Assembly: GCF_964204865.1 (NCBI RefSeq)
Contig: NC_135260.1
Span: 20,274,001 to 20,338,000 of the forward strand
Direction: 5' to 3'
DNA from: Styela clava
Lineage: Eukaryota
DNA length: 64,000 nt
A program made the position numbers and the translations under genes. Positions 14,795 through 42,262 of the stretch are shown here, piece after piece. Every line of letters begins with the position of its first letter. Within the stretch, counting starts at the first letter, position 1. The notes under the pieces are model-generated. The model saw nothing but the letters and a program-made list of their open reading frames with translations, did no database searches and was not told where the DNA came from.

Positions 14795-15730
14795 CTAATT
14801 ACAGCCATCTTCGACGCCCATTTCCCATTTCATACCCATCTGCTCGAATATTGCATTCATTTTTTTTGCAAATTGCGATACAAAGTGATCATTTGCAATA
14901 CATTTGGTCGCGGGTGGCTTTTTTTCATTTTGTTCAGTTGTCTCGGCGTTTGTTTTGCTTGCAACAGTAGTTTCAGATTCTCTAATCTTCCCGAAAATGG
15001 GATATTTCTCTTCTGGTTCACATCCTTCTTTTACTTCGGTCTTCATCCACTGCGATAACTTTTCATCGTCGAGAGTAAGTGTGTAGTTTTGAGGAATTTC
15101 AACAAATCCGGCTAGAAAGAAATGCAGAAGAGTATCAGATACCATGTCATTTAACATGCCCCCGCTTTTTCAAATTTGTGGCATAAAAATTCATACATTC
15201 TTTGCTCATCGTGTATATCAATACTTATAACGGTGTAGTATAAAGATAACATAATGAGACATGGTATCATCAGTTGTTGTGTTATTGTTTATACCCACCT
15301 CCTTTTATGACGCATCTGCAGTCGTGAACGCAGCAATGCTTATTAGCAGGATGTTTATTGCAATCTTCAAATTTAACCAATTTGTTGTCGCATAAGTTGT
15401 AGCATGGTACTAAATCACCTTTGAAGCCCCTTTCTGTAACAACAAAAATGGTATTAGGAATGGCTGTTGAGAATTGTTGTGTAACACCCCATAAGTTGAT
15501 ATTATCATAGATATTATTAAATTATCATATCGAGCCCCGCTGGATGTCTTATCTTTCCCCAGAAAGGAGAAACCTTGTTTAAATGAAACTGAGACAAAAT
15601 TCTTACTTGGTTCACATTGCTGCTGTCCCAATTTGTAGCGAAACTGAAAACATTTGAGTTGAGTGAATGGAGCTGCTTCAATTTCAAACAAGCTTACCAT
15701 CAGAAGTAGAGAGATTGTTGCCACATTCAT
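14795..15730 (-). CDS. Cys-rich secreted protein family, copy 2: complete 3-exon gene, 191 aa (exons 15730-15607, 15433-15299, 15111-14795)
   Basis: Hydrophobic N-terminus MNVATISLLLMVSLFEIEA-AP; both introns GT-AG and phase 1; spliced CDS 576 nt with no stop until TAG at 14797-14795; 12 Cys. Confidence 0.8.
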
Positions 15731-15936
15731 CTTTGATCTATAGAGCTGCAATCGGCAAACACCAGAAAATACTCAAAAATAGTGCTAAAATATCATTTTG
15801 GCAAGTGAATGATTGCTGCTCATACAATAAGGGGAATCATACACTAAACATCCCCTATTCTTTTAATAGAAAAAGGTCATGGTATACTATTGCTTTATGT
15901 TGTAATAAAAATTTAAGCTGTAGCTAACGGGGACAC

Positions 15937-16037
15937 CAGTTGCGTAACCAGAAATTTTCAGAGGGGGAGGGGGTTCTGAAATTTTAATTGTGAATTGAAA
16001 CCGTATCAGCTAGCGGGTCCGAAATGCTACGCCCCTG
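15937..16037. mobile_element. ~100-bp hAT-type MITE about 200 bp upstream of the ATG; orthologous copies at about 780-882, 25713-25804 and 58013-58116
   Basis: Ends CAGTTGCGTAAC / GCTACGCCCCTG with TSD GGGGACAC/GGGGACGC. Confidence 0.7.
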
Positions 16038-18563
16038 GGGGACGCACGCTGTAGCCTACTGGATGTATATCAAACAGTAAAACACAATAATCTCGAGAAT
16101 GTTGCATCGTTAAATTTTTTTTTATTTGAAGACCTTGAAAATGGGATTAAATATTGTGCCGTAACTTATACATGTATAAAAAATCAATGGAAACAATATT
16201 CAACTAAAGTCTAAGCGACTATAGATAGAAATCATAAACAACCTTTTTATCGTCTCCGTGTTTGGTTGTCCCTTGTTGTGTTTCTGCAAGATGCTTGATG
16301 TCCCCAACTTTTCGTAGCACTATTTATACTATCTCATGCATCACTTCAGGCGTTTTTTTTAAATCAACATCCGCTGATCACCTCCATACCGTTATGACGT
16401 CAATATGATCCTACGATATACCTCGATTTCAGAAACCAACATTGGTATTAGTAAATTTTTTCTTACTTTGAATAATTTTCTCTAATCTTCCACAAATATA
16501 TTAGATCACAATCCATCGGAATTTGTTCATACTTTCAACTTATTTGAATGCAAATTGTAAAACAACAATGACTGAAATAATCTTGAAATGTGCATAAACG
16601 ACCCAGACGGATTTTCATCTGATAAAATCGTTTGAAACTAAATAAGACAGAAACTGACAAATGTAAATTCCTCACTTTCTTCAATATTGTGACCTGTCAG
16701 TATTTTGCATCTGATCTTATATAATTAAGGTTAATGGAAGACACTGGTGTTCAGGTAGTTCATAAAATAGGCAAATGCGTATTACATACCCTCATTTTTA
16801 TTCTTTCTTAGCTGTTGTTTTAGCTAATGTCTTTGACATACTTCATGGAAATCAGTTTCTGTCTTCATGAAATGCTGATACAGAAAACAGTTGTAATTAA
16901 GAAGATACGTGTATGATGTAATATGTAACCGTTGTAAATTCACCATTTTGTTATATAATAACAATTAGATGTCAATTATAATTAAATTAAATTTTCGAAT
17001 AAATGTTGAGTAATATAATAAAAAGTTGAATAATAGTTTAAATTACGAAGATGCTTGATTGGATTTTTATTAGAAACTAATCTTTTTTTTCAGGAAGTTG
17101 TCGTCGAAAGTATTGAAATTGAACATCGGCTAACCACCTCCATTCCGATATGACGTCCATTCGCAAGGGCGTCTATTTTATTCGCTTATAAATGGATTTT
17201 TTGATGCCATAATCCGCCACAATTTGCGTCATTTGTTTTATGTATGGCTGTACGTATATTCATTTACATACCAATTGTAATGTAACAATGACTTAATATT
17301 CAAATATTTTTGACAAGTACTTGGCCCAGACGGATTTTTATCTTTTAAATACGCATGAAACCGAATAAGATAAACAAAAATTTTCTATTTCATGAATGTT
17401 GTGAATGTTTCTGATATACTTTGATACCGCAGCTGATGGTAAAGTTGCTATTACGTACATATTCACAATATTTGGGAAACAGAGGTTACAATAATAAGAC
17501 AAAAGTAATCCAGCACATAACTTATCTTGTTCATACTATACCATGCTATCAGTATTTTGCACCTGATCTTATTTAGTTAGTTTGTGTAGTTTAGTAATTA
17601 GATAAATGGGTAATTCAATATTTAATACTCTGAACTGTATGCCTCTTTGACGAATGAATATTGGTGTTTTAAATTTTAGTGAGTTCTTGCGACATTATTC
17701 TAAGCAAGAATGTTTTTTCAATTTTGGTAATGAAGTCTATCACTTAAAACAACACACAGGACAACGCTTTACTTTACTGTTTTCGAGTGCATTTGTTTTT
17801 TTGTTGTATAATGCAAATCAGGTTTCAATTTGGTGTTGTTCAGAAATTCATTTTAAGTAAATGTTGATACAGTAGACAGTCACAAATAATACGATACGTA
17901 AAAGTTGTGAGGTCGCCGCTTTGTTGCATAATGAAATTACATAAAAAGAATTTTCAAATAAATGATCTAGTAAAATGAATGTGAACCATGGTGAAATATT
18001 GGATGAAAGCGTATTAGTGTAAAAGTTGTCGTCGAACACTATTGAAAACGGATTAGTTTGTAGGATACCCAAACTACCAGGATAGTTTATAAAATTAAAC
18101 ACGTGATTTACAAATATCGGCAAGTAGATTTTGTGAAATATAAAGTGGTATAGAGTCCGACGCGCTTACCGAGGCAAGATAAATTTTTGGTACATTTTTT
18201 AATATTTGTTTTTCTGTAGTTCTAATAATCCCCATAAATTGCAAATAACCAGCCCCATTGGAATACATTCAATTCAATAAAAATGGTAAATTTAGGTTTA
18301 GGGTCTACTAAATAGAATTATGCTACATTACAATAAGACAACAACAAAATGTATTGACTTTGTTAACTCTAAAAATTCAGAACCAATATATAACTAACTA
18401 AAGACAGCTATGGTCGAATATATGTACACGAAGTCCATAACGAAATGTTTTACCACCAATTCTACGAAAATCCTTCGGTTTCCTGAACAGCCACGCTATC
18501 TGGGTACCGGTAACGGTACGCGGACTGTTCTAGCTTTTCCTGGCCATGTAAGATGATCTATAC

Positions 18564-20520
18564 CAGGGGCGTCAAACTCGTGGGTTTTCAAGGGCCGCAT
18601 TGCATTTTGGGAATTGTGCAAAAGCAAACAGTTTTTGATATATTTTGATAATGTATACTTGAAGCATATTTTTAGATATGTGTATTTTGTGACATATATT
18701 GTGATGCAATCAAATAGCCGAATAAAGTTTTGTTATTTTCTGAAATTTTAAATGACATTTGAAGCAATTAGGTTTGAGACATCACTTCTCAAAGCAGAAG
18801 AAGACCACATTTGACCAATAAGGAAAAAAATTATTCAACATTTTAGCTGGCTTTTTGTAAAGACAAAATTAATTTCCCGAACAACTTTTTCTTTGATACA
18901 ACAAACATTTATAACGCAATCTGAATCAGTATAGGACATCGCCACCAATAAAAGTCCTTCCGCCAACTATGCTCGCCACAGGCCGAATGATCTTCTCCTC
19001 AGTTAATCTTTCACGTTGACAACGAAGGACACAAAAATCAGAAAAGCGATTGGACGTCATTGATGAGCGCAGCCATGTCTTCACCCGCTTCATACAGGAA
19101 AAAGAACGCTCAGCTTCGACAGTTGTTGCTGGTAGCGTCATAACGATCTGCATTGATGTGTGCACGCTTGGATAAACTCGGCTGCTCAGACGAAACCCTT
19201 ACAAACATTCGTCGTTGACGTTGGAGCTCAAAGAAGCTCTCCACAGTCTCACTTCATTCTGGAGGTTATCCAACAAATACAAACGCTCAATCTCAACCAC
19301 TCGAACTGGTTCGTTCAGAGGAAGAATTGATAGTAAAGAAAAAAGAGGGGTTGTCAATGAAGTGTTCCCGGATAGAGCAGCTCAAGCCGTCGATGTATGG
19401 AAGATATACGGAGCGTTGGAAATACTTGGATGCTGAATCAGCACAGAAGCCTCTTTGTAAATATTCGATGCAAGGTCTAAGTCATTGCGTTCTTCAGTGA
19501 GAACGCTTTGGAGGATGTGGGGCTCTTCACTGACGGCACACTGACTCCGACCGTCTGAAGTGTGCGCGCAGTGCCGAATATCGACCAATTACACATACAT
19601 CGTAGATAACAGAAGACTTCTCTAGAGCAGATTTTAGAGAGAAAGCCTTCGCCCTCGTCTCACTGTTGGCTTCTTTCGCTTCTTTTCGAGAGCCTCAAGT
19701 ACTCGTTTGAAGTTGCAGTTGATTATTGCAACTTTACTTTGGTCATTTATGACCAAATTCAAACAATGAGAGGCACAGTGCACAACGCTCACGTGACCTG
19801 CCATTGTTGTTGCACAATCATAACCCTGCCCCACAAGTTTTTGCAAATCCACTCCTATCCCAGTGAGGTGGGCCAAAATATTTGATGAAATTGATTCGGC
19901 GGAAACGGAATCCATTTCCACAAATCCTGTGAAGCGCAGGCACACTTCGCTATCGCTCACATACCTCAAAACAATGCTTAGTTTTTTCCCGGAAATATTA
20001 CACGATTTATTAGCCTCCATAACGATATCTTGCACTATCATATTGCTTGATACACTGAGAATCTCATTCTGTATCATCGGGCTTGTATACTTGGCGTTTC
20101 CGGCCATGCCTTTTCATATCTTCATCCCCGGCGTCGATACGAAATGGAAGAAGCTCCGCAAAATTTCCGCTATCTCCGGAATGTCCGCGCAAAGGTATGT
20201 TACTAAAAGCACAGAACATACCCGTTTTGACAATAGAAGCCATTATTCGCCTGTTTTCTTTCGATTGCGTAGAATATTAGGCTTCCAACTTTGTACGCAC
20301 ATTTGAATCATTTTCCATGCTTTTGACAAAATTTTTCGCAGCTGCAATTGATTCTTCGTGGTGATTTGAGTCTCGGTGGGCTACAGCCTTTTCAATAAAT
20401 TTTTTGTAGTCAATGAATGGTCTTGTGACAAAAGCAGTGTCCCTGAAACCTCCATGCTTTAAACGCGCTCGCATCACGACGCATAGCTTACACAGGCCAC
20501 TCCCACCAGAGAGTTCGGTG
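18564..20520 (-). mobile_element. Decayed hAT transposase (ZMYM1/DUF4371-type) with a hAT-like terminus at 18564 that truncates duplicate unit 2
   Basis: Fragments NAKYTSPMIQNEI, LVGQGYD.A.TMAG, VHCASHCLNLV, LPATTVEAERSFSCMKRVKTWLRSSM (hATC dimerisation); many frameshifts; CAGGGGCGTCAAAC at 18564 may belong to a separate MITE. Confidence 0.85.
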
Positions 20521-22528
20521 TAAACTAACCAACTGCTGAAAATAATGATGCAAGACATTTAGTGACAGTGATTGCAGTCATGTCCGCACATGAGTATACA
20601 AAAGGGAATCTACTATACTCGTCCAATACCACGAGTAAATATCGCCGTTTTCCCGCGACGGGACCTTCAAATAAAATCAATACTAATTCTCTTTCACGGC
20701 CGAGTAGCTTTGACCACGTGATGGCTTCCATCGAATCTATAAAAGTTGGGGTTTATTTAGGTACATTGTCGGCAACTAGCGCATTCCCTCTTTACATCGC
20801 CAACAGAAAGGGGCAAAGATTTAGTGCGTATGAAATGAAGTATTCGACGGACACCAGGATGACCCAATTGAGTACGAACTTCTCTAAGACGAATGGTGCA
20901 ACAAGTGTTGCTAGCACAGATTCTTGACAATGCGTCTAGTGCCACATTTTCCACACCCGGACGATGGACAATTTCATATTCAAATACAGAAAGTTCTAGT
21001 TTCCACAATTGTAACTTCGTATTCCCAATTTTGATTTTTCCGAAGAATGTATGCCAAAGCTTTTTGATCAGTTTAAACTTTTTCCCATGCAAAAGATATC
21101 CCCATTTTCCCACAGCTTCAACAATCGCCGCCGCTTTTTTTTTTATCTACGGCCGGATGTCTTAATTCCGACTTACCGAGTGTTCTAGAGTTAAAGGCGA
21201 CCGGCCTCCCTTTTTGACTCAAAATGGCGGCAATCGCAAATTTGGACGCATCGCACTCAATAACAAACGGTTCATCTTCATATATGCACCCTAAGCACGC
21301 TTTTAACAAATCGGCTTTCAATTGATTAAAAGAAGATAAAAGCTTTGCCTTTCAGGGGAAACGATGTATTAGTTGAAAGTGGCTTTAATTTTTCACAAAA
21401 TTTAGATATATATTTCGGATAGTATAGGCAAAATCAATCGTAAATCAATGGTACTGTAGATCTTCTCTTTAGCAACCTCGTTGATTATATTGTCTATGCG
21501 AGGTAAGGGATACGCGTCAAGAGCAGTGTATCTATTAATTGTTTGTTAATAGTCAATAACAAGACGTTTTTTATGTCTTTGGTCTTTTGTGACCAATACT
21601 TGAGCGCGCCACGGCGACTCTGACCGTTCTATAGTGCATTCCGCAACAAACGAGCAATCTCATATTTAATGAACTTCAGATTATCGGAACTGTAATTTCT
21701 GGACCTGACAGCAATGGGCTTACAGTTATCGTCAATAAAGGTTTACTTACTTTTGCGCTAGCCAAATTGCAAAATGCTTTACCAACGTACAAGGAGTCGC
21801 GGTCTCCGTTGAATTTGAAAACAACTTTTCGATGTTTGCTCAAAAAATCTTGGCCCAGTATGATGTCCGTACACAGATTTTTCACAACACCAATCTTCAT
21901 TGCACCATAAACTCTCGTTCTAATCATTAGATCGTCGTTTGTGCAACTGATTCGTTCGAAGCAAGTTCAATTACATTTTTAGTAACTCTGTGAAGCGCTG
22001 GAGTCCAGGAGACCCACCAGAGGGTTATCCGCAATTTTAGCAGTAATCGTCGATCGTGACAACGAAGTATGAATACCAGCCATAATTGAAGTCAGGTGCG
22101 AATCTTTTACGTAGCAACCGATTTCTTCGCTTTACGGCAAACCTGTGCAAAATGTCCTCGGAGGCCACAATCAAAACACTCTGCGTTCCTAGCGGGGCAC
22201 CTCAGTCGATTTAAAGCATGAGTTCGTCCGCAAAAATAACACCTTCCACGGTTAACTTTTGTTCCGTAAGTACTTCTTGCAGCAGCAACGTGTTGGTCAC
22301 TATCAGAGCTAAACTTAGAAAATTGGTCTCCTTTGTTTACCGACAATTGATCATTCATTGAAGTAACGGCTGCTTGACGAGGCAATGATTGCTGGTACGA
22401 ATGCAAAAATTTCTCGGCTCGTTCCAAAGAATCAGCAATTTGAATAGCCTTTTCCAGTGATAATTCATCATATTCTAGCAATCTTTGTCGAATATTACCG
22501 GAACATAGCCCTGTTATAAGCGCATCTC

Positions 22529-24064
22529 TTAGCGCCTCATCTCTTTGTTGTTGGGCGCTGACGTCTTTGAAATTACAATCTTTCGCAAGTGACCTGAGTG
22601 CTTGGGAAAATTCAGACATAGTTTCACTGCTCGATTACAAATAATCGAATAATCGATTACAAACCTTCGTTTCCCATTTTCACCCTTTACGACGACAACT
22701 TGAGCTCTCCACGGAGATCTGCTAGGCGTTACAATTCCTTCCTGTAACAAACGGTTGACCTCCATTTCAATAAACTTTCTGTCATCTTTGGAATACCAAC
22801 GAGACTTTGTAGCAATAGGATGGCAGTCAGCAGTCAGATTTTTGAATGGTTCTGGTGGCAAACTTTTGAAAGTTGAAAAGCCACATACAGACATTGGAGG
22901 TCGATCGCCGCCGTAATTATAAGTTACACTTTGATGTTGTCCTTGAAAGTCTATTCCAAGTAAAATGTCACAACATAGATCATCCATTACTCTCAATATG
23001 AATTTTCGATAGTGTCGGCCCTGATATTCAATATCAGCTGCTGTGCAACCTTTTATAGGCATGGAACACGCCAGAGAAGCCATTGCTACCTTGTCCTTAA
23101 CTGTGTCCCTTTTGATTGGGAGGTTACACCTTTCTATGAGACGAGGGTGTATGAAACTCTGACTACTGCAACTCTCAAAAACTGCGCATACTTTGTGTCC
23201 TTCAATATGAATCACAGACGACGACCCTCTCAATGATTTCGGGGTATTGTCAAAAGCCATTCCTAATATATACGAGTTAGAACATGCAGTGACTTTGTCA
23301 GGATTTTGTGGGTTGAAAACGGTTCCTCTGCAGACTTTTATGAAATGTCCTTTTTTATGACATTTGAAACAAAACACATTTCGGGCTGGACATTTTGAAC
23401 GAGGATGTTTCTTTCCGCCACAGAAAAAGCACGCGGAATTTGCAGTAGCAGATATTTTCTCGATATCACACGATGTCTCATCGTTTTGAGTTTCACTGTT
23501 TTGAGCAGCCGCAGACACAGTAGAAGGATCGGATATTCGATAAGCTTCAGCATTCTTAATTGCTACTTCTAAGCTTCTGGCTTGATCGTATGTCGTATTA
23601 AGATCAAGGTGTTTGTTTTCCAACAAACGCTGTCGTATCCATGTGGAGTTTAACCCCCGGATAAAAGCGTCTCGGACATAAGCATCTCGGTTTTGAACAG
23701 CAGATACAGCTTTGAAATTACAATGTTTGCTTAACGATTTCAATGCTTGCATGTATTCGTCTACATTTTCAGATGCTTGTTGGTTCCTGGTTGCCAGAAC
23801 ATGCCGAGAATAAACTTCATTGAGAGGTTTGACAAACATTGTTTTCAGAATCTCAATCGCAGTATCGTACGATTCTGCCTCCTCAATGTTTTGGAATATA
23901 CGAGGAGATATGAAATTCACCAGTACACCAAGTTTATCAAGGCCTTCAGACGGCAAGGCGTTTAGAAAATTATCGAAAGTCTTCTTCCAGTGCAGCCACT
24001 CACAGGATGCTTCACTAGAGTTAGGATCTACCTCCAGTCTCTCTGGTCTCAGAATCTTGTCCAT
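22529..24064 (-). CDS. gag-pol: Gag-protease-truncated RT of Gypsy element B (last ~37 aa are out-of-frame read-through)
   Basis: 511-aa ORF with CFFCGGKKHPRSKC, CFKCHKKGHFIKVC and ILLGIDF; protease active site reads FESCS rather than D(S/T)G. Confidence 0.85.
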   Translation of the reverse strand: MDKILRPERLEVDPNSSEASCEWLHWKKTFDNFLNALPSEGLDKLGVLVNFISPRIFQNIEEAESYDTAIEILKTMFVKPLNEVYSRHVLATRNQQASENVDEYMQALKSLSKHCNFKAVSAVQNRDAYVRDAFIRGLNSTWIRQRLLENKHLDLNTTYDQARSLEVAIKNAEAYRISDPSTVSAAAQNSETQNDETSCDIEKISATANSACFFCGGKKHPRSKCPARNVFCFKCHKKGHFIKVCRGTVFNPQNPDKVTACSNSYILGMAFDNTPKSLRGSSSVIHIEGHKVCAVFESCSSQSFIHPRLIERCNLPIKRDTVKDKVAMASLACSMPIKGCTAADIEYQGRHYRKFILRVMDDLCCDILLGIDFQGQHQSVTYNYGGDRPPMSVCGFSTFKSLPPEPFKNLTADCHPIATKSRWYSKDDRKFIEMEVNRLLQEGIVTPSRSPWRAQVVVVKGENGKRRFVIDYSIICNRAVKLCLNFPKHSGHLRKIVISKTSAPNNKEMRR

Positions 24065-24419
24065 GCTTGTACCAGAATACTCTTGTGAAATGATTTAAGT
24101 TGAATAAATTGTAATGAATAAGAAATATAGTACCTTGATATAAGGCTTTATTCAACTTAAATTTAAAGCACTCTTAGAATGAATCTAAAATAATATAAGA
24201 CAAGCAAATGTTATTAAACAAGAAAACAAATACGTATCGAATTGCTGATGCTAACAGTAAGCGGCTCAATAGTTAAATGAATAAAGTTGAAAGAATTAAC
24301 ACACTACATCTACAGCACAGCAATGATTGGTGTCTGATTTAAAACGCCACAGCAATCATCGCTTGACTGCAGCTGTATAAACAAATAGATACATTGAGTT
24401 GCATTTCCAAGTTATCACA
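22640..24419 (-). mobile_element. Ty3/Gypsy element B nested in the gag of element A; 5' LTR 24419-24110, 3'-truncated in early RT
   Basis: LTR TGTGATAAC...TCATTACA; ORF 24064-22529 has gag, two zinc knuckles, protease and RT start SPWRAQVVVV..RFVIDYS, then switches to element A sequence. Confidence 0.85.
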
Positions 24420-24979
24420 AACTGAACCCGTGTAGCCAGCGTGTGTCTTGCATATATGATATTCTTCTTTTTATGATAATGGTTGCGCAAAATCACCATA
24501 GCTTCATCATACACATCCATCACAAAGAAAAACACGTTAGTAATAAAATCCACCAATGATAGCACATTTGTTAATATGCCTTGAAACACCTTCCTTGGAT
24601 CTGTTAGATTCCACAGCTGTTAAGTAATTTGCAAGCATCCTGTCCCAATGGGAAAATACTTTTAGAGCTCCAACTTCATTTAGCAAGACATAAAGCACTG
24701 GCACCCGAATAAGTTTTTCGTCGGAAGTTGCCATTGCTTTCGGAAAACCAGTTAATCGTTTCAAGTTTTGAGCTAATAAAATTGTGGTGAACCTAATACA
24801 GAAAGAAACAAACTTGTATACTAGGCTTTTATTAGCTCGAACGTCGACTAAGAGTCTTAAAGCAGCACAAACCAAAGAATGACTTTCAAATCAAAACACC
24901 ATGCTATTAAAGGACGAACAGTATACGTCAGCAAGGTCAAATGTCGTGGCTGTTTTAGGTGTTGCTAGATTTCAAGACA

Positions 24980-25497
24980 TATCTGGCTAGAAAGAAATGC
25001 AGAATGGCATCATATTTCATGTTATTTTACATGCCCCCGCTTTTTACAAGTTTGTGGATACAAATCCATTCATTCTTTGCTCATCGTGTATATCAATACT
25101 TATTATAAACTGTGTACGCTAAAGATAACATAATGATACATGGTATCAGCTGTTGTGTTAAAGTTGTAGCATGGTACTAAATCACTTTTGAAGCCCCTTT
25201 CTGTAACAGCAATATGGTATTAAGAATGGCTGTTAAGAATTGTTTAAGTGTTACACAAGTTGAAATTATCATAGATATTATCATATCGAGTCCCGCTAGA
25301 TGTCTTATCTTTCCTCAGAATGGAAAAACCCTGTTTAAAATGAAACTGAGACAAAATTCTTACCTCACCCCAATTCTTTCGCATTGATGCTGTCCCAATT
25401 TGTAGCAAAACTGAAAACATTTGAGTTGACTGAATGGTGCTGCTTCAATTTCAAACAAGGTTACTATCAGAAGTAGAGAGATTGCTGCCACATTCAT
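24980..25497 (-). pseudogene. Cys-rich secreted protein family, copy 3 (pseudogene)
   Basis: ATG at 25497; +10-nt change before the exon 1 donor shifts phase; most of exon 2 and its donor deleted at about 25161; exon 3 cut after about 7 nt by the Gypsy A LTR. Confidence 0.85.
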
Positions 25498-28400
25498 CTT
25501 TGATTTATAGAGATGCAATCGGCAAACACCAAAGAATATTCAAAAATTCATATTGCAAAACCAGTGCTAAAATAGCAATTTGGCAAGTGAACAATTAATG
25601 GTCATACAATAAGGGGAGTCATACACTAAACATCCCCTGTTCTCCGAATATAAAAGGTCACGATATACATTTGCTTCCTGGTGTAATAAAGAATTCAAGC
25701 TGACGGGGGCACCAGTTGCGTAACCAAGAATTTTCAAAGAGGGAGGGGGGTCTGAAATTGTTTAAAATCGTATCAGCTGGTGGGTCAAGCAGGCTACGCC
25801 ACTGGGCGACGCACGTTATTCTGAATATCAAACAGATACGATCAAAATCTCGAGAATGCTGCATCGGTCATTTTTTTTCAATTGTAGACATTGGGAATGG
25901 AAGTTAAACTGTGCCGTAAATTATACCCGTGAAAATAGATGAAAACAACATTCAACTAAAGATTAAGCGACTATAAATAGAAATTATAAGCAACCTTTTC
26001 TATTGTTTCTGTTTTTGGTTGTCTCTTCTTGTAATTCTGCAGGATGCTTGATGTCCCTAACTTTATGGTCAATATGGTCTTACGTTATACCCCGATTTAA
26101 GAGAGTTTCAGAAACCACCATTGGTATTAGTAGTTTTTTTCTTAATTTGTGTAATTTTCGTCACCAAGTGCAATTTTTATTTTAAGCTTCTATAAATAGA
26201 TTTTTTCGTCAAAATTCATCAGAATTTACTTATACTTTCAATTTATTTTAATGCTAAATGTAATACAACAATGACTGCAATAATGAAATGTACGATCCAG
26301 ACGGATTTTCCAGACGATAAAATCGTTTGAAACTGAATAATATAGAAACTGACAAAAGTGAAATCCTCACTTTCTCCAAAATTGTGACTGTTTCAAATAT
26401 ACATTTTGCTAATGGATAGTAACTGGGTTGATAGGTAACTAATATTTACAGTTAGTCCATCTTGGTAATAGCTTGCGGTAATAAACTCCAACACGTAGTA
26501 TATGTATTTATTCCATATCGATTGATTCCTACTTACAAATCCTGTCAGCATTTTGCACCTGATCTTATTTAATTAAGGTTAACGCAAGACACTGGTGTTT
26601 AGGTAGTTCATAAATTAGGCAAATGCGTACTTTAGTATTAACTACCCTGAATTTTGCCCTCAGCCGTTGTTTTAACTAATTGCTTTGGCAGTGTTCATAA
26701 AAATAAGTTTCTGTCTTCATGAAATGCTGATACAGAAAACAGTTGCAATTAAGAAGATACGTGTATATGATATACGATATGTAACCTTTGTAAATTCACC
26801 GATTTAGTATATAATAAAAATTAGACGTCACTTATGAATGAATGAAATTTTCGAATAGATGTTCACGTAAAAATAAGTGTGAACTATTGTGGAATGTCTG
26901 ATAAAATTGAATAATATTTTAAATTACGAAGATCGTTGATTGAATTTTTATTAAAAAATAATTTTTTCAGAGGTTGTCGTTGAACACTATCAAAATTAAA
27001 TTTGTGTGCAGGATACACAAACTGCTTTGGTTAAAGGAAATGGCATATTTATGATAAAGTACGTCATTTACAAATTTGTCAACTAGAGTTTGTAAAATAA
27101 CAAATGTGATGATGTGCCCGAATGCATCTTAATGTCAGAGAAACACAACGGAAGCATCGGCTTACCACATCCATACCGATATGACGTCCATATAGTGTTG
27201 CGGTATACATCGATTTGAATCGGAAGTTTTAGAAACCAACATTGTTATTACTAAATCGTTTCGTAAGTTGAATAATTTTATTCAATCAGGTGAGTTCATG
27301 TGCGAGAGCGCCTATTTTAATCTCTCGTAAATAGATTTTTTGATGTCACAATTCACCAGAATCTGCGCCATCTGTAATATGTATTTATATGTATGTATAT
27401 ATAATACCTGGTCCAGACGGATTTTTATCTTTTACAAGCGCAAAAAACTGAATAAGATAAACGAAAATCTTCGATTATTGTTGTGAATGTTCCCAATATA
27501 CATTTTGATACTGAATTGTAACTGTTGGTAAAGTCACTATTGCGTACATATTACATAGTATTTGGTAAACCGAGGCTGCAATGAAATGACAAAAATTCAT
27601 AAAATTTGTCAATGGATTGGTCTAATAAACCAGCACATAACCCATTTGGTTCATACTTCCCCACACTGCCAGTATTTTTCAATTGATCTTATATAATTAG
27701 GGTTAAAGTAAAAGACTTGGGATCAGGTAGTTTATGAATTAGCCAAATGGTTATTTTAGTACTCAACACTCTGAATTTTATTCTTCCGTGATTAATGAAA
27801 ATTGAAGTTGTATGTTGTTTTAGCTAATCCCTTTTACATCACTGAAACCTTCATGAAAACAGCTTGGTGAGTTCTTGTAACCTTGTTCTAAGCAAGAATA
27901 TATTTTATTTTAATAATGGCGTTTATCACTTTACATAACACGCATGACGTCGCATACTTTACTGTTTCGAGTGCGTTGATTTTGTCCTACAATGCAAATT
28001 AAGTTTTAATTTGGAGTTATTCTGAATTTATTTTATTTAAATTTGGGTACAAATGGTCGCAATCATAGCGATACGTATATGTTGCACGATACATAACATT
28101 GTAAGTTTACAGCTTCATTATACAATGAAAATTACACTTTGATTAGGATTGAAATAACTTTTAAATGAATGATCATATAAAATGAGTGTGAAGCATGGTG
28201 GAATATTGAGTGGAAGTGTTTTAAAGTAAAAGACTTCTAAAACTTGATTTTTATTTTGAACTGCAAAGATAATTTATCGGATTTTTATTAGAAAGAAGAA
28301 ACTTTTAGGAAGTTATCGTCGAACACTATTGAAATTGGATTAGTCTGTAGAATACACAAACGGCTTCGGTTATATCCAATGGGATATTTATGATAAAGTA

Positions 28401-28661
28401 CGCTATTTACAAATCTGTTAAATAGATTTTATAGAATAAAAAATGTAATGATGTGCCTGAATGCATCTTATTGTTAGAGAAACACAACGGAAGCATCGGC
28501 TAAATACCTACATTCCGATATGACGTCCATGTGCAAGCGAGTCTATTTTAATCTCTTATAAATAGATATTTTAAATGTCCTAATCCACCAAAATGTTCCT
28601 CATATGTTTATATGTATTGCTGTACGTATAATTCATTTACATGCAAGTTGTAATGTAACAA

Positions 28662-28936
28662 CAAGTAAACGAGAATATCGGTCGGAGACCGAAGACTCAT
28701 CGATCGAAAGTTAGGGGATCCCCCAATACAGAAACTGCGGTTTCTATAATATAACTATAACTCTATAATTATACGACATAATTCATCCAAAATCAATAGG
28801 CTTCTGGTCTGAGATATGATAAATGCACATGTAATTCAACCTCGCTTTCGTGAGATATCGCGTGTATCTAACAGACAGACAAACAAACAGACAAATACCT
28901 ATCAACATACTTACCGATCTTAAGATCGATAAGTAA
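28662..28936 (+). mobile_element. DINE-1/HINE-like non-autonomous element (related pieces at about 7065-7235 and 62315-62480)
   Basis: Absent from paralogous units 1 and 2 (TAACAA|TGAC); internal (ACAG/ACAA)n microsatellite; 3' hairpin ACTTACCGATCTTAAGATCGATAAGT; no TSD. Confidence 0.65.
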
Positions 28937-30149
28937 TGACTTAAAATTCATACTTGGCTCAGATGGATTTTTATTTTTTTTAAATTCAGGAAACCGAATA
29001 AAACAAACGGAAATCTTCTATTTAACCAATGTTGTGAATGTTTCTGATATATAACTTGATACCGCAGCTGTTGGTAAAGTTGCTATTACGTAGATATTTG
29101 CAATATTTGGAAAATCGAGGTTTAAATAAAAAGACAAAATTTCATCAAATTATGCGATTTTGTTAATGGTTTGGTCTAATAATCCAGTACTTGACTCATT
29201 TTGTTTATACTTCACCATGATATCAGTATTTTGCACCTGATCTCATTTAGTTAATTTGTGCAGTTTAGTAATTAGATAAATGGGTAATTTAATACTTGTT
29301 ACTCTGAATTTTATGCCTATGTGATGAATGAATGTTTGTGTTTTAGATTTTAGTCAGTTCTTGCGACCTTATTCTAAGCAAGAATGTTTTTTAATTCTGG
29401 TAATGACGTTTACTTCTTCATACAACACGCATGACAACACCTTACTGTTTCGAGTGCGTTTGTTCTGTTGTCAGGTTTTAATTCGGTTCTGTTCGGAAAA
29501 TCATTTTAGGTAAATTTTGATACAGAAAACAGTCACATTAACACAATACGTAAAAGTTGTTAAGTTATATGCATATATAGCCAACTCAATATACAAATAC
29601 TGTACAGCCATTACGGTGATGTACGTATACTGCCAGATCATTACATAGGAATACAGTTTATATATATGCGATTGCATCTACGAATTATATGCACATTACG
29701 GTTGGCCATGTAATTAACGCATTAAAAAGCATAAAAAACTTGAAAGCTAGTGATCGATACGGTATTAGCATTGATTGTGCGAAAAAAGACAAAAAACTAC
29801 CAGTTTTCGTAGTACATGATATAATAGGTAGGATACCAATCTATAATATCATAATACCCACAACAGCTGGTTGTTGATAACACGAGAAATGCGCTGGCTG
29901 AAAATCCTTTTGCAGTGAACTGCTACTGGCAATAAACTGTCTACAAACTAATCAAATTAACGCATGGTAGAAAATATAAAACTGCCGGTGCGCGTAGTTC
30001 TTGATAAATAAACAATTGGCGCCAATCTATGATGTCATAATACCCCACAACAGCTGACCGTTGATAACACGAAAAATGTGCTGGTTGAAAATCTCTCTTC
30101 AGTCCCACTGATTTGGTGGGTGCATTCAAACACATCCTGGTACACAATG

Positions 30150-31500: not shown

Positions 31501-32282
31501 ACTGGATTTGTTAATAGAAGATCGACGGACATGCGTGATAAAATGACCCATTCTCTTGCATCTTATAAAAGTGTACTTTTGAATTAAATACGACATTAGC
31601 ATTTAGATAAAATATCTGGCCCTACATGGGTCTTAAATACAATTTGGTATAATGAAGGTTTTACTAAGCTCTCATGTCTCATAAGGCTTACTCAACTTGG
31701 TTTTCGGTTTCTCTATCATTTTGTTTTCATATATTTTTTGAAGGTGTGTGGCATGCCTATGTGGAGTTTTTGCAACACAAAAATTTGAGAACCATTGATT
31801 CACGACATCTAAATTTCCATGTTTTTAGTTGCAAGAATTGGTGTATATAAAACCTATTTCAGCATTATCACCGTGTTATTCTCATGTTAATGTTATTTTC
31901 CACATTTTTCTGTTACAATGGTCTTTGCGCATGAAAAGTGACATTTTCAGTTGAATCGTTTTTATTTTATTTAACAAACTGATAGCTTGACATTAATTTC
32001 TTAATTCAATTTCTTTCTTAACCACGTGCACTGGCAACTCTATGTCGTAATATACGCAAGCAACATATAGATGCTTATCACTGAATGATGCTCATGATGC
32101 GATACTTTCATGATTTATCGATATGTAACGTGAGTAATGAGTTTGAGTGAGTTTGCACAAAACTTCAACCTGATTGGTTTGTCGACAGTTACAGCCAATG
32201 GCCAAGGAATAGTTCACTGAAAACAGATTTTCAATGTCGTCTTTGGCAGCAACACATTCCTCATGTTATCACAATCAGCTGT

Positions 32283-32889
32283 TGTCGGCAGTCCGTGTGG
32301 TCCTAAAGTTTAGTTTAGTTAGGATTCCTTCAGTTGTACATCGTCATCGTGATGATTATCGCTATCTCGTCGTCGTCATCATCACTGTGTTGTTTTCTCG
32401 TATTCGACGTGTCGCATTTTTCTCTTTCACGTGTTATCGTGTTACGTATTTATTTTATTATCGTCCCCTAAGCTCAGCAAGATGTTTAAGATTGCATTTC
32501 TGGTGGTAGCAGTTTAGGATTTCATTTCTTGTTATGGCAGTTTAAGATTACATCGCCTTTATAACGTTGAAGTTTGAATTCATTCAATAGTCTTCTTTTA
32601 TACCGTATTTCGAATCGTTCGATATAACATTATGATATTTGCATGTCTACAGCTCGTATGGTATTGCATTTATAGTTACTGTTTTACCTTGGTTGTATAT
32701 CTGTCGTTTTGGGACTATGCTGTTATATGGAGTTGTTTTGTGTAAGTATTAGTTTTGTATTCTGTATCATTTGTCTTTGATTTATTTGGTGCTAATTATT
32801 TAATTTGTATTTTAGTCAACCGTTTTGAATACTTTCAATAAAACGAGTCTGGCAAATCGACTTATCATTTCCGGGTCCCAAAAGTGACA
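32283..32889 (+). repeat. 5' LTR of BEL/Pao element (607 bp)
   Basis: Direct repeat of 38885-39490; I see 3 substitutions and 1 indel. Confidence 0.97.
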
Positions 32890-32917
32890 AAGTTGAACAA
32901 AACTCCTTGCGACGACG

Positions 32918-35900
32918 ATGAACGAAGCAGATGAATCAATTACACAAGATTTGAATAGACGAGAAGCTTCTTCTTCGCCTGCAGTTCCTCTCGCGGAAAC
33001 AGACGACGGTAACTCTGAAACTATTGGACGCAATGTATTATGCCACGAAAGAGTCCGACTACAAAATGAACTAAATGGTTTGTGCGACAGAATTTCAAAA
33101 TCGATTACTGAAAATGCTCAAAATTCTATCGTTACTGATCTTAAAATTAAACTTCATGTTAAACGAATTGCTTATGACCAAGTGATGGATAAACTCATTC
33201 CGACTACCCGTAATCCAAATGTTTTGAAGAAATATGAAACTGGAAGGCAAATGATGTTATCGAAAATCGATCAAATTGAAAGCAGAATTAATTCTTACCT
33301 TGACGAGGAGATCGTTTCTGATCACGGGTCTGTCGAATCCAATACAAGCAAATGCAGTGTTGAATCACTGAAGCGATTGCAACTTGAGCAAGAACGAGAG
33401 GTAGAAAGAGCCGATTCTCTTGTACGTATGGCTAAACGAGACTTTCTCACAGAAGAAGATACCATTCGCAATAAAATATCAGCACTAGAGCGTCGCCTTG
33501 ATACCAAACGTCGAGACATAAACGAAAAAGAACGAATGGCAGATCTAACACGTCGCCAAGCTGACTAACTTATGCGTGAAATTGAACAAGAAAAGACTGA
33601 ATTGGCTACCAAAAAGATGCCTAAAGATAACTTCCGTGGCGTCAATATTGAATATCCGTTAGAGTCAACACGCAGACGAAGTGCAGCGAACTTTTTTGTT
33701 CCGACGAAGAGTCAAGTGGCAACAAATTCAGAAAAGACCAAAGAATTGCACTTCCCGACAGCACGAACTTACAAACGCCCGTCTCCTTCAAACAGAATGC
33801 TCATACCACAAGAAGCAGTCGACGCGTGGATTAACCACTTGGAACCTAACCAGTCTGGTAAATTTTCTGTTAATTCTTTTAATATGTCAGTAGAGGAACA
33901 AACTATGTTATCATTACAGTTGAATTCTAGAATATTGTCCCAGCACCATTTATCGCCGATTACGATTCCTAGTTTTAGCGGAACGCCCCTAGAATAGCCA
34001 AACTTTATTGAGTTATTTTTTGATAATGTACACAGTTCTCTTGACGACGACGGTTCGCGTATGGTTCGCTTAGTCGCGTCTTTGACGGGGGTGGCTAAAC
34101 GACATGTCGATGGCTTAGGCACGGTGGGAAGTAATTATATTGTCGCGTTGAGTGAATTGAAACATATATTCGGCCAACGGGTGACGATTGCTCGGGCCTT
34201 TCTCGAGAAGGTTGTAGATGGTAGACGAGTAACAGAATTCAGTATCCGAAAAATATCCGATTTTCATTCTGAAGTTCGCGACATTGTGATAAATTTGAAG
34301 AAAATGCGATTGCTTGCAGATTTGTATAGTATTGAAAATGTTAGAAAGACAGCAATGCGAATTCCGGCAGAACTGACCTCGAGTTGGAATAAGTTTGTGA
34401 CTGATATGATTCGTGCCGACGAAATGCCGAGTTTACTGGACTTCGAGCAGTGGTTGTGGGAACGATGCGAGGAATTAGGAAATCCTTTTTCACCAAATCT
34501 TTTCAGTACTAAAATAGATCGTGACGATCGCAGACAGGCATTTCCTAAGAAGAATGTGGTATACCCTTTATCGGGTCATTCAAATCAGCCGCTCGAACAA
34601 CCGCGAATGCAATGTTTCTATCGCAATGGTTTTCATTCTTTAAGTAACTGCGATAGCTTCAGGTTTAGTGCCAATGACACGAAAAGAAGATTTCTACTAA
34701 ATTCACGCCTGTGCTTTAACTGTCTCGAACCTGGACATTTAGCTATTTCGTGCCGGTTCCGCAATATGTGTCGTGTTTGTCCCGGTAAGCATCATTCAGC
34801 CATCCATGGTTTGAGAGTCGTTCCTAATAGATTGAGTGATAACAATCAGCCTGATCTCCCTCCTCATATGAGCGGCGTTGCCAATTCTCATGTTTCAGGC
34901 TTTAATGGTGTTCAGTTTCAGCTTTTGCCAGTCGTAGTAAAAGGCCCATTGGGATCCTCTGAATATGCTATCGCTGTTCTAGATTCTGCCAGTCAAATCT
35001 CAATAATACATCCCAAATTAAAACAAAAACTTGGTTTGAAAGGAAGTCCTAGGTGTCTAACCATTAACACCTTATGCAATAAGGGCGTTTCGCAAAATAC
35101 GGAGGTGGTGAAATTGTCGATGCGATCTGCTCACGACGAGAGTGGTCAAATTCTGATGTTAAGCAACGTGTTTGTGGTCGAGTCACGCATACCACATCCA
35201 GCTAGAATCCTTAAGAACGATCACAATATGACTCACCTGCAGGATATTCCGTTAACCGACATTGAAGCGAACAAAGCCATGATTTTAATCGGAGCCGATA
35301 ATCCCTTGGCGCATTTCCAGCTTGAACGTAGAGTCGGCCAGCAACATGAACCAGTGGGTATTAAAACTCCTCTCGGTTGGACTTTGATCGGGTCTTCAGG
35401 CGCGACTAATGAAGATGAAACTGTTTCAAATATGCTGTGTTGTGATTTGCGTGACCAGTATAACATGCTGCAAGAACAAGTTGAGCGATTTTGGTCCACT
35501 GAAGCTGTAGGCACGGCGTACAATTTGACCCGTAGCGAGTCGATTGAAGATAGACAAACTGATAATTTGATGGAAAGAAAAATTAGATTTATCGACGGTC
35601 ATTACGAGGTTGGGTTTATGTGGAGAAATGAAAATTGCGAAATGCCGCAAAACGAACACGTAGCGCTTAACAGGTTCGAAAATCTCAGAAAACGACTCCA
35701 AGGAAACGAACGTTTGCGAAACTTATATTGTAAAGAAATGGCAAAGAATATTGAAAGGGGTTGGGTGCGTAAGCTAACTTCAGATGAAAAGGCGTTTCGC
35801 GGTCCTCGAACTTGGTTTCTGCCTCATCATGGCGTTGAAAATCCCAACAAGCCAAATAAACTAAGAATTGTTTTTGACGCGGCATCTACTTGCTGCGGCC

Positions 35901-38856
35901 GTCAGTCTGAACAGTCGATTGATGTCCGGGCGCGATTTGATCAATAATCTAGTCGGGGTGCTTTTACGTTTTCGGGAGAGACCAATCGCTATAAGCGCCG
36001 ATATAGAAGCCATGTTTCATATGATTCGATTGCCGGAAGATGATACGGATTCTGCACGTTTTCTCTGGTCGGAAGACCTTTTTTCAACCAAACGGCCAGA
36101 TGTGTATAAATTCTTAGTTCGTATTTTTGGAGCTGTGGATTCACCTTATGTCGCAAACTTTTGTTTGAAGAGAGCTGCGTACGATAGTAGAAACAAGTTT
36201 CCTAGAGACGTAATATTAACTACCGATAGAGACTTTTATGTCGATGATTTACTTACTTCGAAATGGAATGTTGATTCCGCGGTATCGACAGCTAAAGATA
36301 TGATTAAGATGTTACACGATAAAGGATTCAACTTGACCAAGTGGGTTTCGAATTCTAAATCGGTTTTACGTGAAATATCCAGTGGACGTGTCGTCACTAA
36401 TGTTGACTTAGATCTGGACAGATTACCTGTTAGAAAAGCTCTGGGCTTGCATTGGGACATCGAGAAGGATTGCTTTATATTCGACCACCAGAAATTTACT
36501 GATTTTACCACGAAAAGAAAGGCCCTTAGTGTAACCAGTTCAATATTCGATCCATTAGGATTTGTAGCACCAATCATTTTGTATGCCAAATTATTACTGC
36601 GGGAATGTTGGCGTGACAACTTAGCTTGGGACGAAGTATTTGATAATAAGAGATTGAAGTGTTGGGAAAATTGGATAAATTCGCTGAAATGTTTAAAGAG
36701 TTTTTCGATTCCACGTCAATTTAAAGGTGTTAAATGTGAAAGTTCCTCGTATGAAATTCATATATTCTGTGATGCATCAGAAGTGGCATATGGCGCGGTA
36801 GCATACATAATATCGAAGCATTCCCGGGAGAATTTTCAGTGTAGTCTTATCGCGGCTAAAGCAAGAGTCGCACCTATGAAAGGTATGACCGTGCCTCGTT
36901 TAGAATTGCAAGGTGCTCTCTTGGCCGTGCGATTGTTAAATTTTCTCCGAAAAGAACTATCCCTTCCACTAGGCGACGTACATATGTGGTCCGACTCGAC
37001 TTGTGTATTGAGATATTTAAAAAATAAAACTCGAAGATTTAAAACATTTGTAGCCAATCGCGTTCGCGAAATACTCGATCACACTCGGCCACACCAATGG
37101 AAGTACGTCGACTCCGCACAGAATCCCGCTGATTACTGCACTAGGGGAATGACGGTTTCCAAATTTCTAGAAAATTCTGATCGATGGCTACATGGACCAG
37201 AGTTTTTGCTCATGCCCGAAAGTGATTGGCCAAGCCAGATAGCGTTACGTGCAGTTGACGACCACGACCAAGAGATTAAATATCAAACATGCATACTAGC
37301 AGATTGTTTTATAACTACGGATAACAGCGATGGAGTACTTGATTCGGAAATCGAAAAGGTCGTCGATGTCGAACGTTTTGATTCGTGGTTTTCCTTATGC
37401 AAACGAACTGCCGTGGTTTTGTTGGCAGCTCGGTATTTTAAGAATCTTTCTGTGAAATGTCCGACGTATAGCCCGCTGCCAGCTCAACTTGTGACTCCTA
37501 AACAGTTGGAACTCGCGGGCCGGTATTGGATAGTTTCTGCTCAAAACAAGCATTTCCGCGTGGAGCGCAAATGCATAACTAACCGAGAAGATTTATCATC
37601 AAAATCAACGTTACTTAATCTGACGCCATTTTTCGATGGACAAGTGATCCGCGTCGGGGGCCGTCTTGAAAATGCCAATATCCCACTGCGTTCGAAACAT
37701 CCTATTATACTGCCGTATTTAAGTTTGAAATGTGATTCGAACTGCCCATGTCGAATTTCATGGTTGATAATGAAAGCTGCTCATATTCGACTCGCACATG
37801 CCGGTCCAGAGGCCACGCTTAGCGCATTAAGACAGCGCTACTGGCATATAAAAGGGAGAACTTGTCAAACGAATAATTGATAATTGTTGGGAATGTAAAA
37901 GACGCCGAGCAAGTTGCAGAACCCCACTGATGTCGAATCTGCCCAAAGTTCGTGTTACTGAAGCAAGACCGTTCGAAAATGTCGGGCTGGATTTCTTCGG
38001 CCCGATCCAAACAAAGAGAGGCAGGGTTTTAGAGAAACGATGGGGGTGTTTGTTTTGTTGTCTTTCAATGAGAGCTGTACACATTGAGATGGCATGGACT
38101 ATGGATACTGATTCCTTCATATGTGTACTTTTGTCTTTCATTGCGATACGAGGACCTGTATCCCAAATATGGTCGGACAACGGATCAAATATAGTTGGTG
38201 GTTCCCGAGAGCTGAAAACCGTCCTTAACTCGATAGATGAATCTCGCGTGGCAGAACTGTGCTTAAAACACAATATTGAATGGCATTTCACTCCACCTTA
38301 CGCTCCCCATTTTGGTGGCGTTTGGGAAAGATTAGTAAAGTCCGCAAAGCGTGCTTTGAAAGCAGTTCTGGGGAATGTGCGTGTAACCGACGAAGTCTTG
38401 AAGACCGCGTTTGCGAGGGTTACCGACATTATGAATAGTAGACCCATTACAACAGTGAGCGACGAACCAACCGACTTTAGTGCCATTACATCAAATTGTT
38501 TGTTGAAAGGGCATTCGGCCGAAGTGTTTCCACTGGATTCAGACGTGATGAAATTATGCTACAGAAAACGATGGAGGCAAACCGAAGCTATTTGTAATCA
38601 GTTTTGGAGAAGATGGCGAAAAGATTACCTACCGAATTTGATGACACGATGTAAGTGGCGGAAGGAACAACGAAACTTACAAGAAGGAAATCTGGTGCTC
38701 GTTTCTGACCCCGTTGCACCGAGAGGACGTTGGCAACTTGGTCGTGTTATTCAAATTTACCCTGGTTCTGACGGACGAGTCCGAACTGTCGCGGTTAAAA
38801 CTATAAATGGCATACATATTCGACCCGCATCGAAAATCTGCCTCCTAGAAGAATGA
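32918..38856 (+). pseudogene. gag-pol: BEL/Pao gag-pol polyprotein with 2 in-frame stops (33566, 33995) and 2 frameshifts (about 35900, about 37860)
   Basis: FSGTPLE*PNF, CFNCLEPGHLAISC knuckles, LDSAS protease, WFLPHHGV..KLRIVFDA, FYVDD (RT), FCDASEVAYGAVAY (RNase H), GLDFFGP..SDNG..GGVWERLVKS (integrase). Confidence 0.93.
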
Positions 38857-38884
38857 CTTTCTGCGGATAGTCATGGGGTGGCTT

Positions 38885-39490
38885 TGTCGGCAGTCCGTGT
38901 GGTCCTAAAGTTTAGTTTAGTTAGGATTCCTTCAGTTGTACATCGTCATCGTGATGATTATCGCTATCTCGTCGTCGTCATCATTACTGTGTTGTTTTCT
39001 CGTATTCGACGTGTCGCATTTTTCTCTTTCACGTGTTATCGTGTTACGTATTTATTTTATTATCGTCCCCTAAGCTCAGCAAGATGTTTAAGATTGCATT
39101 TCTGGTGGTAGCAGTTTAGGATTTCATTTCTTGTTATGGCAGTTTAAGATTACATCGCCTTTATAACGTTGAAGTTTGAATTCATTCAATAGTCTTCTTT
39201 TATACTGTATTTCGAATCGTTCGATATAACATTATGATATTTGCATGTCTACAGCTCGTATGGTATTGCATTTATAGTTACTGTTTTACCTTGGTTGTAT
39301 ATCTGTCGTTTTGGGACTATGCTGTTATATGGAGTTGTTTTGTGTAAGTATTAGTTTTGTATTCTGTATCATTTGTCTTTGATTTATTTGGTGCAATTAT
39401 TTCATTTGTATTTTAGTCAACCGTTTTGAATACTTTCAATAAAACGAGTCTGGCAAATCGACTTATCATTTCCGGGTCCCAAAAGTGACA
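38885..39490 (+). repeat. 3' LTR of BEL/Pao element (606 bp)
   Basis: Direct repeat of 32283-32889, preceded by short G-rich tract GGGGTGG. Confidence 0.97.
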
Positions 39491-41770: not shown

Positions 41771-42039
41771 AACAGTTGCCGTGATTATTCACTCGTTAAA
41801 AAAACGACTTTCTCAGTGAGACTCTTCTGTGGCGTATAATATTCAATCCATGGTAATTAAGTTAATTGTGTCTAACGTAACTCGCGGTGGCGACTTTTAA
41901 ATACATTGCTACTCTAAAAATACAGATGTGATATGTGGACATAAACACATGAGATAAACTTTCTAATACTATTTAGTTTTGATAGGTATGGTATAGGTAT
42001 GTTTGCAATCTTGCTAATTCTTTATCGCCGTTAGGAATC

Positions 42040-42262
42040 CGTACATGTGGTACACGTAGAACACGTGGTACAAGTGGGACACGTTGGGCAAGTGGTACAC
42101 GTGGTGCAAGTGGCACACGTGGGGCAAGTTGTACACGTGGTACAAGTGGGACCTTTGGTGCAAGTGGGAGATGGGGTACAAGTGAGACATGTGATGCAAG
42201 TGGGACATATGGTACACGTGGGGTATGTGGTACACGTGGGTCAAGTGGGACAAGTTGGACAC
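42040..42262. repeat. 9/18-bp minisatellite (GGTACACGTGGGACAAGT-like)
   Basis: About 24 degenerate 9-mers; generates repetitive ORFs in three frames. Confidence 0.9.

What the first reader, a model, noticed from the sequence alone, without database searches (positions are those of the whole stretch)
24770..24838. Gypsy element A shows the same hairpin with a different sequence (covariation)
Seen: the LTR ends ...CACCACA, followed by ATTTTATTAGCTC, which is complementary to GAGCTAATAAAA 45 nt upstream in the LTR. A and B have unrelated LTR sequences, yet both place the arm 1 nt after the LTR end, both arms include AATAAA, and both are followed by GCCT. Position and pairing are conserved while sequence is not, which argues for a functional RNA structure rather than chance.
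Basis: partly seen in the sequence, partly recalled or inferred. Interest (0 to 1): 0.7.

Follow-up and report, generated by a model that had tools for sequence, protein, structure and literature searches.

The report
Self-priming hairpin in animal Gypsy retrotransposons
Two broken jumping genes here, and 22 related families, carry at the spot where a host tRNA primer should bind a sequence that pairs with their own terminal repeat, with matched changes on both sides, so this animal lineage likely starts copying itself with its own RNA, as fission-yeast Tf1 does.

Summary
Gypsy element A (minus strand) and element B, nested in A's gag, both have a stretch starting one base after the LTR's terminal CA that pairs perfectly (12 and 16 bp) with the LTR 45 and 38 nt upstream. 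It sits where the primer-binding site belongs, and there is no TGG. In 24 families (6 in this genome, 18 elsewhere), 305 of 312 positions over 13 bp are Watson-Crick, with 81 compensatory cells and a single G-U; five tRNA-primed relatives reach 6 of 11. A second stem (RCC:GGY) stacks on the arm's 3' end. AATAAA lies in the arm in only 5 of 24 families, so poly(A) masking is not the core role. Best reading: Tf1-like self-primed reverse transcription (0.8) in a clade without chromodomain, so not a Tf1/sushi member by that test. Transcript start and cleavage are not shown. This scan noted similar hairpins in Gypsy elements of other genomes (e1-7805419, e1-7786827). I found no paper on this lineage in nine library searches.

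The parts
24783..24981 (-). Element A, 5' LTR (about 10 nt missing at its 5' end; family LTR about 210 nt)
   Evidence: alignment to copies with two LTRs, L039 and L042
24827..24838 (-). A: LTR arm, predicted self-primer; predicted cut after 24827
   Evidence: 12 bp perfect complement of 24770-24781; 15 bp in other copies
24790..24826 (-). A: inner stem starting at GCC, predicted to stack on the primer duplex
   Evidence: MFE fold; 19 of 24 families have 4 bp or more here
24770..24781 (-). A: primer-binding site, one base after the LTR end, no TGG
24420..24734 (-). A: first piece of gag, frame-disrupted and interrupted by element B
24110..24419 (-). Element B, complete 5' LTR (310 nt), inserted in A's gag
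   Evidence: 98.4% identical to the LTR of L031
24147..24162 (-). B: LTR arm, predicted self-primer
   Evidence: 16 bp perfect complement of 24093-24108
24132..24146 (-). B: inner 5 bp hairpin directly after the arm
24093..24108 (-). B: primer-binding site, one base after the LTR end, no TGG
22647..24064 (-). B: gag, protease and start of RT; the rest of B with its 3' LTR is missing in this copy
20528..22632 (-). A: remainder of gag and decayed pol with internal deletions; no 3' LTR found in the window

Best explanation
[quoted passage not shown] Shown: position, pairing, covariation, absence of TGG, a second stem at the junction. Inferred by analogy with Tf1: that the arm lies at or near the transcript's 5' end, that the element's RNase H cuts between the arm's last A and the following RCC, that the stacked RCC:GGY stem helps place the cut, and that plus-strand synthesis copies the primer back into the primer-binding site, which would explain the strict Watson-Crick covariation.
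For: (1) Place: the second arm starts one base after the terminal CA in 24 of 24 families, with the invariant CA-A-T-Y-T junction, where five tRNA-primed relatives in the same genome have TGG after 0-3 bases. (2) Pairing: 305 of 312 cells over 13 positions are Watson-Crick; 18 and 16 of 24 at positions 14-15; 6-9 of 24 from 16 on. RNAalifold on an unguided MAFFT alignment predicts the same 13 pairs, 11 with changes on both sides. 81 compensatory cells against 20.6 in shuffles, 0 of 500; slid registers give 31-47% paired against 94%. Arms swapped between families average 7.1 of 11 against 10.8; no permutation of 20000 reached the observed total. (3) Controls: five TGG-type relatives reach 6 of 11 with a wider search. 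(4) One G-U in 360 cells of the main duplex against G-U at the first pair of the inner stem in 14 of 24 families: the main duplex behaves like a templated copy. (5) Inner stem: 104 bp in total against a shuffled mean of 86, maximum 101 in 1000; formed in the MFE fold of 19 of 24. (6) G at -10 in 22 of 24 and A at -11 in 17 of 24; two families stop pairing at exactly 11 nt, the primer length reported for Tf1 (PMC7175516, passages). (7) Young copies with identical LTRs, 5 bp target duplications and a polypurine tract exist, so the lineage has moved without a tRNA site. (8) Hairpin-bearing elements form one side of a 100/100 branch against tRNA-primed ones.
Against: No transcript start, cleavage or primer was observed. 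Pairing runs 13-15 nt in most families, with compensatory changes at positions 12 and 13, which does not fit a strict 11 nt primer starting at -11; no TATA box at a fixed distance in 9 LTRs read. The two flanking duplexes of the Tf1 pretzel are only weakly above shuffles (29 and 17 of 500). The 24 representatives were picked by me from loci in which a junction was found by a search that maximises pairing, the better-paired copy being taken for two decayed families; the same search on shuffled LTRs reached the observed score in 0 of 200 for 23 families and 5 of 200 for one. Families are related, and many metagenome loci are near-copies, so counts are not independent events. 12 of 48 outside loci with a readable 5' end scored under 12 of 15; see full report.
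Confidence: 0.8

Rival explanations
1. The hairpin's main job is to hide the poly(A) signal in the 5' LTR, leaving it free in the 3' LTR, and priming uses something else.
For: AATAAA or ATTAAA falls inside the arm in 12 of 24 families, including A and B; the partner exists only behind the 5' LTR.
Against: 12 of 24 arms have neither hexamer; F4, F6, L072, L073, L074 and L087 have a hexamer in the loop. It does not explain the fixed start one base after CA, the loss of TGG or the near absence of G-U. It may still be a side role in some families.
Confidence: 0.06
2. The primer is element RNA, but not a piece cut from the 5' end: for example the 3' LTR copy of the arm, or a short LTR transcript acting in trans.
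For: The arm is present in both LTRs in all 20 two-LTR copies compared; sequence alone cannot tell which copy primes; pairing beyond 11 nt fits a primer with a longer 5' part.
Against: Strand transfer needs RNA downstream of the arm at the 3' end (established mechanism), which a 3' end at the arm would lack; the conserved stacked stem needs the sequence after the arm in the same molecule.
Confidence: 0.09
3. A host small RNA or tRNA fragment primes, and the LTR match is incidental.
For: Half-tRNA priming is known in some copia lineages (PMC6317226, passages). Host tRNAs were not screened here.
Against: The site differs from family to family within one genome and each version matches its own LTR.
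Confidence: 0.03
4. Chance complementarity in AT-rich LTRs.
For: The arms are AT-rich; swapped arms reach 10-11 of 11 in 38 of 552 pairings.
Against: Shuffles, permutation, slid registers and TGG-type controls.
Confidence: 0.01

Closest known systems
Tf1/Tf2 (S. pombe), Tj1, Tosmo and the Tf1/sushi chromovirus group: self-primed reverse transcription
   Same: Ty3/Gypsy elements whose primer-binding site is complementary to their own 5' LTR rather than to a tRNA; in Tf1 the first 11 bases pair and RNase H cuts between bases 11 and 12 (PMC7175516, PMC4600332, passages).
   Different: No chromodomain in 4 of 4 full ORFs, while the fission-yeast elements all have one (10.1101/2022.12.06.519325, passages). 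Duplex 13-15 bp. The accessory fold is a stem stacked on the arm's 3' end inside the LTR, not clearly the three-duplex pretzel. Hosts by protein names are tunicate, cnidarian, echinoderm, crustacean, moth and spider; the papers read name fungi, vertebrates and mosses.
Mag-lineage Gypsy elements
   Same: Gag N-terminus related (TGG-type relatives retrieved at E 1e-7 to 1e-3); two zinc knuckles; short LTRs; single ORF. Calling those relatives Mag-like is my recalled label, consistent with Leu/Ser/Arg primer sites in PMC3286476 (passages).
   Different: They have a TGG site and no LTR pairing; RT separated by a long branch.
Plant TAR copia and moss Tcn1 lineages, predicted self-priming
   Same: Self-priming predicted from LTR-PBS complementarity (PMC6317226, passages).
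   Different: TAR is Ty1/copia; Tcn1 is a chromovirus clade; both are in plants.
Cigr-1 clade (ascidian and mollusc Gypsy elements)
   Same: A lead only: an ascidian Gypsy clade listed beside Mag and also found in molluscs (PMC6238403, passages and supplement rows).
   Different: No Cigr-1 sequence was available, so identity with this clade is untested; that paper's main text has no occurrence of PBS or primer binding.

Membership tests
Ty3/Gypsy LTR retrotransposon | Domain order Gag-protease-RT-RNase H-integrase | tested here: met
   Pfam on 4 full ORFs of the clade
Ty3/Gypsy LTR retrotransposon | TG...CA LTRs, polypurine tract, target-site duplication | tested here: met
   5 bp duplication in 5 of 6 copies checked (the sixth had a wrong end coordinate in my script)
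Tf1/sushi group | Primer-binding site complementary to the element's own 5' LTR, no tRNA TGG | tested here: met
   24 of 24 families
Tf1/sushi group | Chromodomain at the integrase C-terminus | tested here: not met
   no chromodomain hit at E 0.01 in 4 of 4 ORFs
Tf1/sushi group | RT phylogeny inside the chromovirus branch | not testable with these tools
   No Tf1/sushi sequence could be fetched (blank). Indirect: RT-RNase H of B scores 195 bits against Ty3, two TGG-type relatives 253 and 218, so no special closeness, but long branches blur this.
Tf1/sushi group | Primer is the 5' end of the transcript | not testable with these tools
   only assembled contigs were offered
Tf1/sushi group | 11 nt primer | tested here: inconclusive
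   pairing to 13-15 nt in most, exactly 11 in L079 and L104; A-G at -11/-10 common
Tf1/sushi group | Three-duplex pretzel with both PBS flanks paired to the LTR | tested here: inconclusive
   97 against 88.9 (29 of 500 shuffles) and 125 against 115.3 (17 of 500); not kept in most MFE folds
Tf1/sushi group | Cleavage by the element's RNase H | not testable with these tools
   bench test; RNase H domain present
Mag lineage | tRNA-complementary TGG primer site | tested here: not met
   0 of 24 families
Mag lineage | RT groups with Mag-like elements | tested here: inconclusive
   separate side of a 100/100 branch, but the tree has no outgroup and long branches meet
Cigr-1 clade | RT groups with Cigr-1 | not testable with these tools
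   no sequence in the supplements searched

The most novel reading that the evidence does not exclude
An unnamed, animal-wide Gypsy clade (tunicates to insects and corals) dropped tRNA priming independently of Tf1/sushi and uses its own geometry: a 13-15 bp primer duplex with a stacked RCC:GGY stem marking the cut, and a primer site rewritten from the LTR in each cycle.
Probability: 0.45. Interest if true: 0.68.

Novelty: new variant of a known kind. Interest (0 to 1): 0.52.

Why it matters
Self-priming has been shown only for Tf1 and predicted for chromoviruses and one plant copia lineage in the papers I could read. A large invertebrate clade without chromodomain that does the same would show that the trick is either much older or arises repeatedly, and 24 natural variants define a minimal substrate (strict duplex plus one stacked stem) for asking how an RT-RNase H cuts an RNA-RNA duplex. 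It also matters for annotation: tRNA-based PBS finders will miss this clade, and such elements would escape control by tRNA fragments aimed at the primer site (inference).

Tried and rejected
Transcript ends: no RNA holder on record was listed, and all runs are contigs; laying four runs on the whole element and four on the 5' LTR showed no start, poly(A) end or fold-back joint at the arm; no evidence either way. One contig ending at the arm's edge is explained by a variant 30 nt away. Splice-acceptor-like motif 16-43 nt upstream of the arm: 10 of 24 against a shuffled mean of 5.2, maximum 11, but AG after a pyrimidine tract is no commoner than AT or TA (14, 16, 15), so rejected as T-rich background. 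TATA box at fixed spacing: none in 9 LTRs. A strict 11 nt primer from an initiator-like motif (label recalled): only partly fits. Viral contigs: no relatives in two scans. Chromovirus reference in the own genome by PF24626: nothing, and the control rang nowhere. Rfam: only a sub-threshold mir-15 match. No tRNA gene in the window. Four primary papers on Tf1 were not held. The element at 32282-39490 is BEL/Pao, not element B.

Full report
What is in the window. The finding lies at the 5' end of a decayed Gypsy element, A, on the minus strand. Alignment to copies with two LTRs puts A's 5' LTR at 24981-24783 and shows a second element, B (24419-22647), inserted in A's gag; B has a full 310 nt LTR but lacks its 3' half here. 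The genome is a 377 Mb animal assembly, probably a sea squirt: a protein named by its source as ascidian is almost identical to one family's RT, and earlier notes say the same.

The observation. In A, 12 nt beginning one base after the terminal CA pair perfectly with the LTR 45 nt upstream; in B, 16 nt pair across 38 nt. Both folds have z-scores below -5.5. Other A copies pair over 15 nt; the window copy has one unpaired change.

Own genome. A gag search gave 109 matches; I examined 30 returned loci and fetched 40 stretches, some overlapping them. Six families carry the hairpin (A, B, F3-F6). Of 47 copies of five families with a recognisable junction, 44 keep at least 12 of 13 pairs; departures are one-sided, as expected from decay after insertion. 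Seven further loci (L036, L040, L048, L061, L063, L065, L067) were left out of that count because the 5' end is lost or rearranged; L065 keeps a 13 bp pairing 430 nt upstream of gag. More distant relatives (L052, L055, L056, L058, L059) have a TGG site and reach only 6 of 11 pairs.

Other organisms. Metagenome and genome scans gave 66 loci. 13 lacked a match to the gag N-terminus and 5 had too little upstream DNA. Of the remaining 48, 36 score at least 12 of 15. Of the other 12: L079 and L104 pair 10 of 11; L102 has a 17 bp pairing but a changed LTR end; L088, L092 and L121 are decayed copies of a hairpin family; L078 appears to have lost the arm; L090, L091, L103 and L112 have no gag start; L133 looks like a different lineage. 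None showed TGG at a recognisable junction. I grouped the positives by eye into 18 families.

Covariation. Over 24 families, 305 of 312 cells in positions 1-13 are Watson-Crick, pairing fades at 14-15 and is at background from 16. An unguided alignment puts the arms in register, and RNAalifold predicts those 13 pairs. There are 81 cells with change on both sides against 20.6 in shuffles; slid registers fall to 31-47%. These shuffles ignore relatedness, so they are not probabilities. Swapping arms between families never reached the observed total in 20000 permutations. A and B lie on opposite sides of the clade's deepest split in a midpoint-rooted RT tree, and all 13 hairpin rows fall on one side of a 100/100 branch against 4 TGG rows; the tree has no outgroup and long branches meet. 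Protein relatives carry source names from crab, anemones, coral, sea cucumber, ascidian, moths and spider; their LTRs were not seen.

Anatomy that points to priming. The second arm occupies the primer-binding position, and TGG is absent. The register is fixed: CA, one A, then the arm. The main duplex has one G-U in 360 cells, whereas the inner stem has G-U at its first pair in 14 of 24 families. In LTR elements plus-strand synthesis copies the primer back into the primer site (established; for Tf1, cDNA retains a single-stranded PBS copy, PMC11042837 passages). If the primer is the LTR arm, changes in the arm would be written into the site as exact complements (inference). Directly after the arm comes RC(C/T/G), with C at +2 invariant, pairing with a GGY or similar later in the LTR: at least 4 bp in 19 of 24, total 104 against at most 101 in 1000 shuffles, a modest excess.

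What does not fit neatly. The poly(A) hexamer is in the arm in 12 of 24 families counting ATTAAA, so masking it is at most a side role. G at -10 (22 of 24) and A at -11 (17 of 24) suggest a start that would give Tf1's 11 nt, and two families stop there, but compensatory changes at 12 and 13 say the paired piece is usually longer. The Tf1 pretzel's flanking duplexes are only weakly supported. Transcript start and cleavage could not be examined.

Comparison with what is known. Tf1 pairs its first 11 bases with the PBS and is cut by RNase H between 11 and 12 (PMC7175516, passages); the Tf1/sushi group are chromoviruses with a three-duplex pretzel (10.1101/2022.12.06.519325, passages); self-priming is implicated from fungi to vertebrates (PMC4600332, passages) and predicted for Tcn1 and TAR (PMC6317226, passages). 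The present clade works like Tf1 but fails the chromodomain test, so it is not filed as a member. Its relation to Tf1/sushi, and its name (Cigr-1 or a MolGy clade are leads from PMC6238403, passages and supplement rows), remain open. Also seen as passages only: PMC3601003, PMC6934838, PMC3286476, PMC5006619, PMC5341516, PMC3670739, PMC13524379; none of those passages describes this pairing in an invertebrate Gypsy lineage.

Not found in print. Searches (plus the supplement search) on self-priming or self-primed with Gypsy, Mag, Tf1, invertebrate, metazoan, pretzel and Cigr found no paper on this lineage. The library lacks most subscription journals, Repbase reports and GyDB; Butler et al. 2001 and the Levin papers were not read; one supplement of PMC6238403 was an unreadable PDF. 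An earlier mention is therefore possible. This scan's notes e1-7805419 and e1-7786827 report a like hairpin in Gypsy elements of other genomes; they are not independent evidence, and my reading was set before I saw them.

Verdict. A real, conserved primer-site hairpin; likely Tf1-like self-priming (0.8) in a chromodomain-less animal Gypsy clade; new variant of a known kind; interest 0.52.

Noticed in passing
window 32282-39490 (+), LTR intron 32742-32815, primer site about 32892-32903: Young BEL/Pao element (LTRs 99.3% identical) with no TGG site. Twelve bases starting two after the LTR end pair perfectly with the joint formed only if a 74 nt GT-AG intron inside the LTR is removed.
   Followed up: partly
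L079:61-121, L104:556-626: Two different families share a C-A mismatch at pair 6 and stop pairing at exactly 11 nt; tolerated mismatch or editing site, untested.
   Followed up: no
L041, L010, L011: Single copies in which the primer site carries a change that extends pairing with the LTR (to 20 bp in L041, pair 17 in L010 and L011); would fit templated rewriting by a primer longer than 15 nt, but three cases only.
   Followed up: partly
L038: The same arm change is present in both LTRs while the primer site is unchanged, so a mismatched copy arose in one replication round.
   Followed up: no
L051: A TGG-type relative appears to lie in ribosomal DNA-like flanks (recalled resemblance).
   Followed up: no
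window 1-4750, 15100-18560, 24970-29560, 56200-58800: Several diverged copies (75-90%) of a multi-kilobase AT-rich repeat or segmental duplication.
   Followed up: no
window 19600-20520 (-): Decayed ORF pieces that look like a hAT-type transposase, abutting the end of A's integrase (label recalled).
   Followed up: no
window 42005-42279: Degenerate 9-nt tandem repeat, about 30 units.
   Followed up: no
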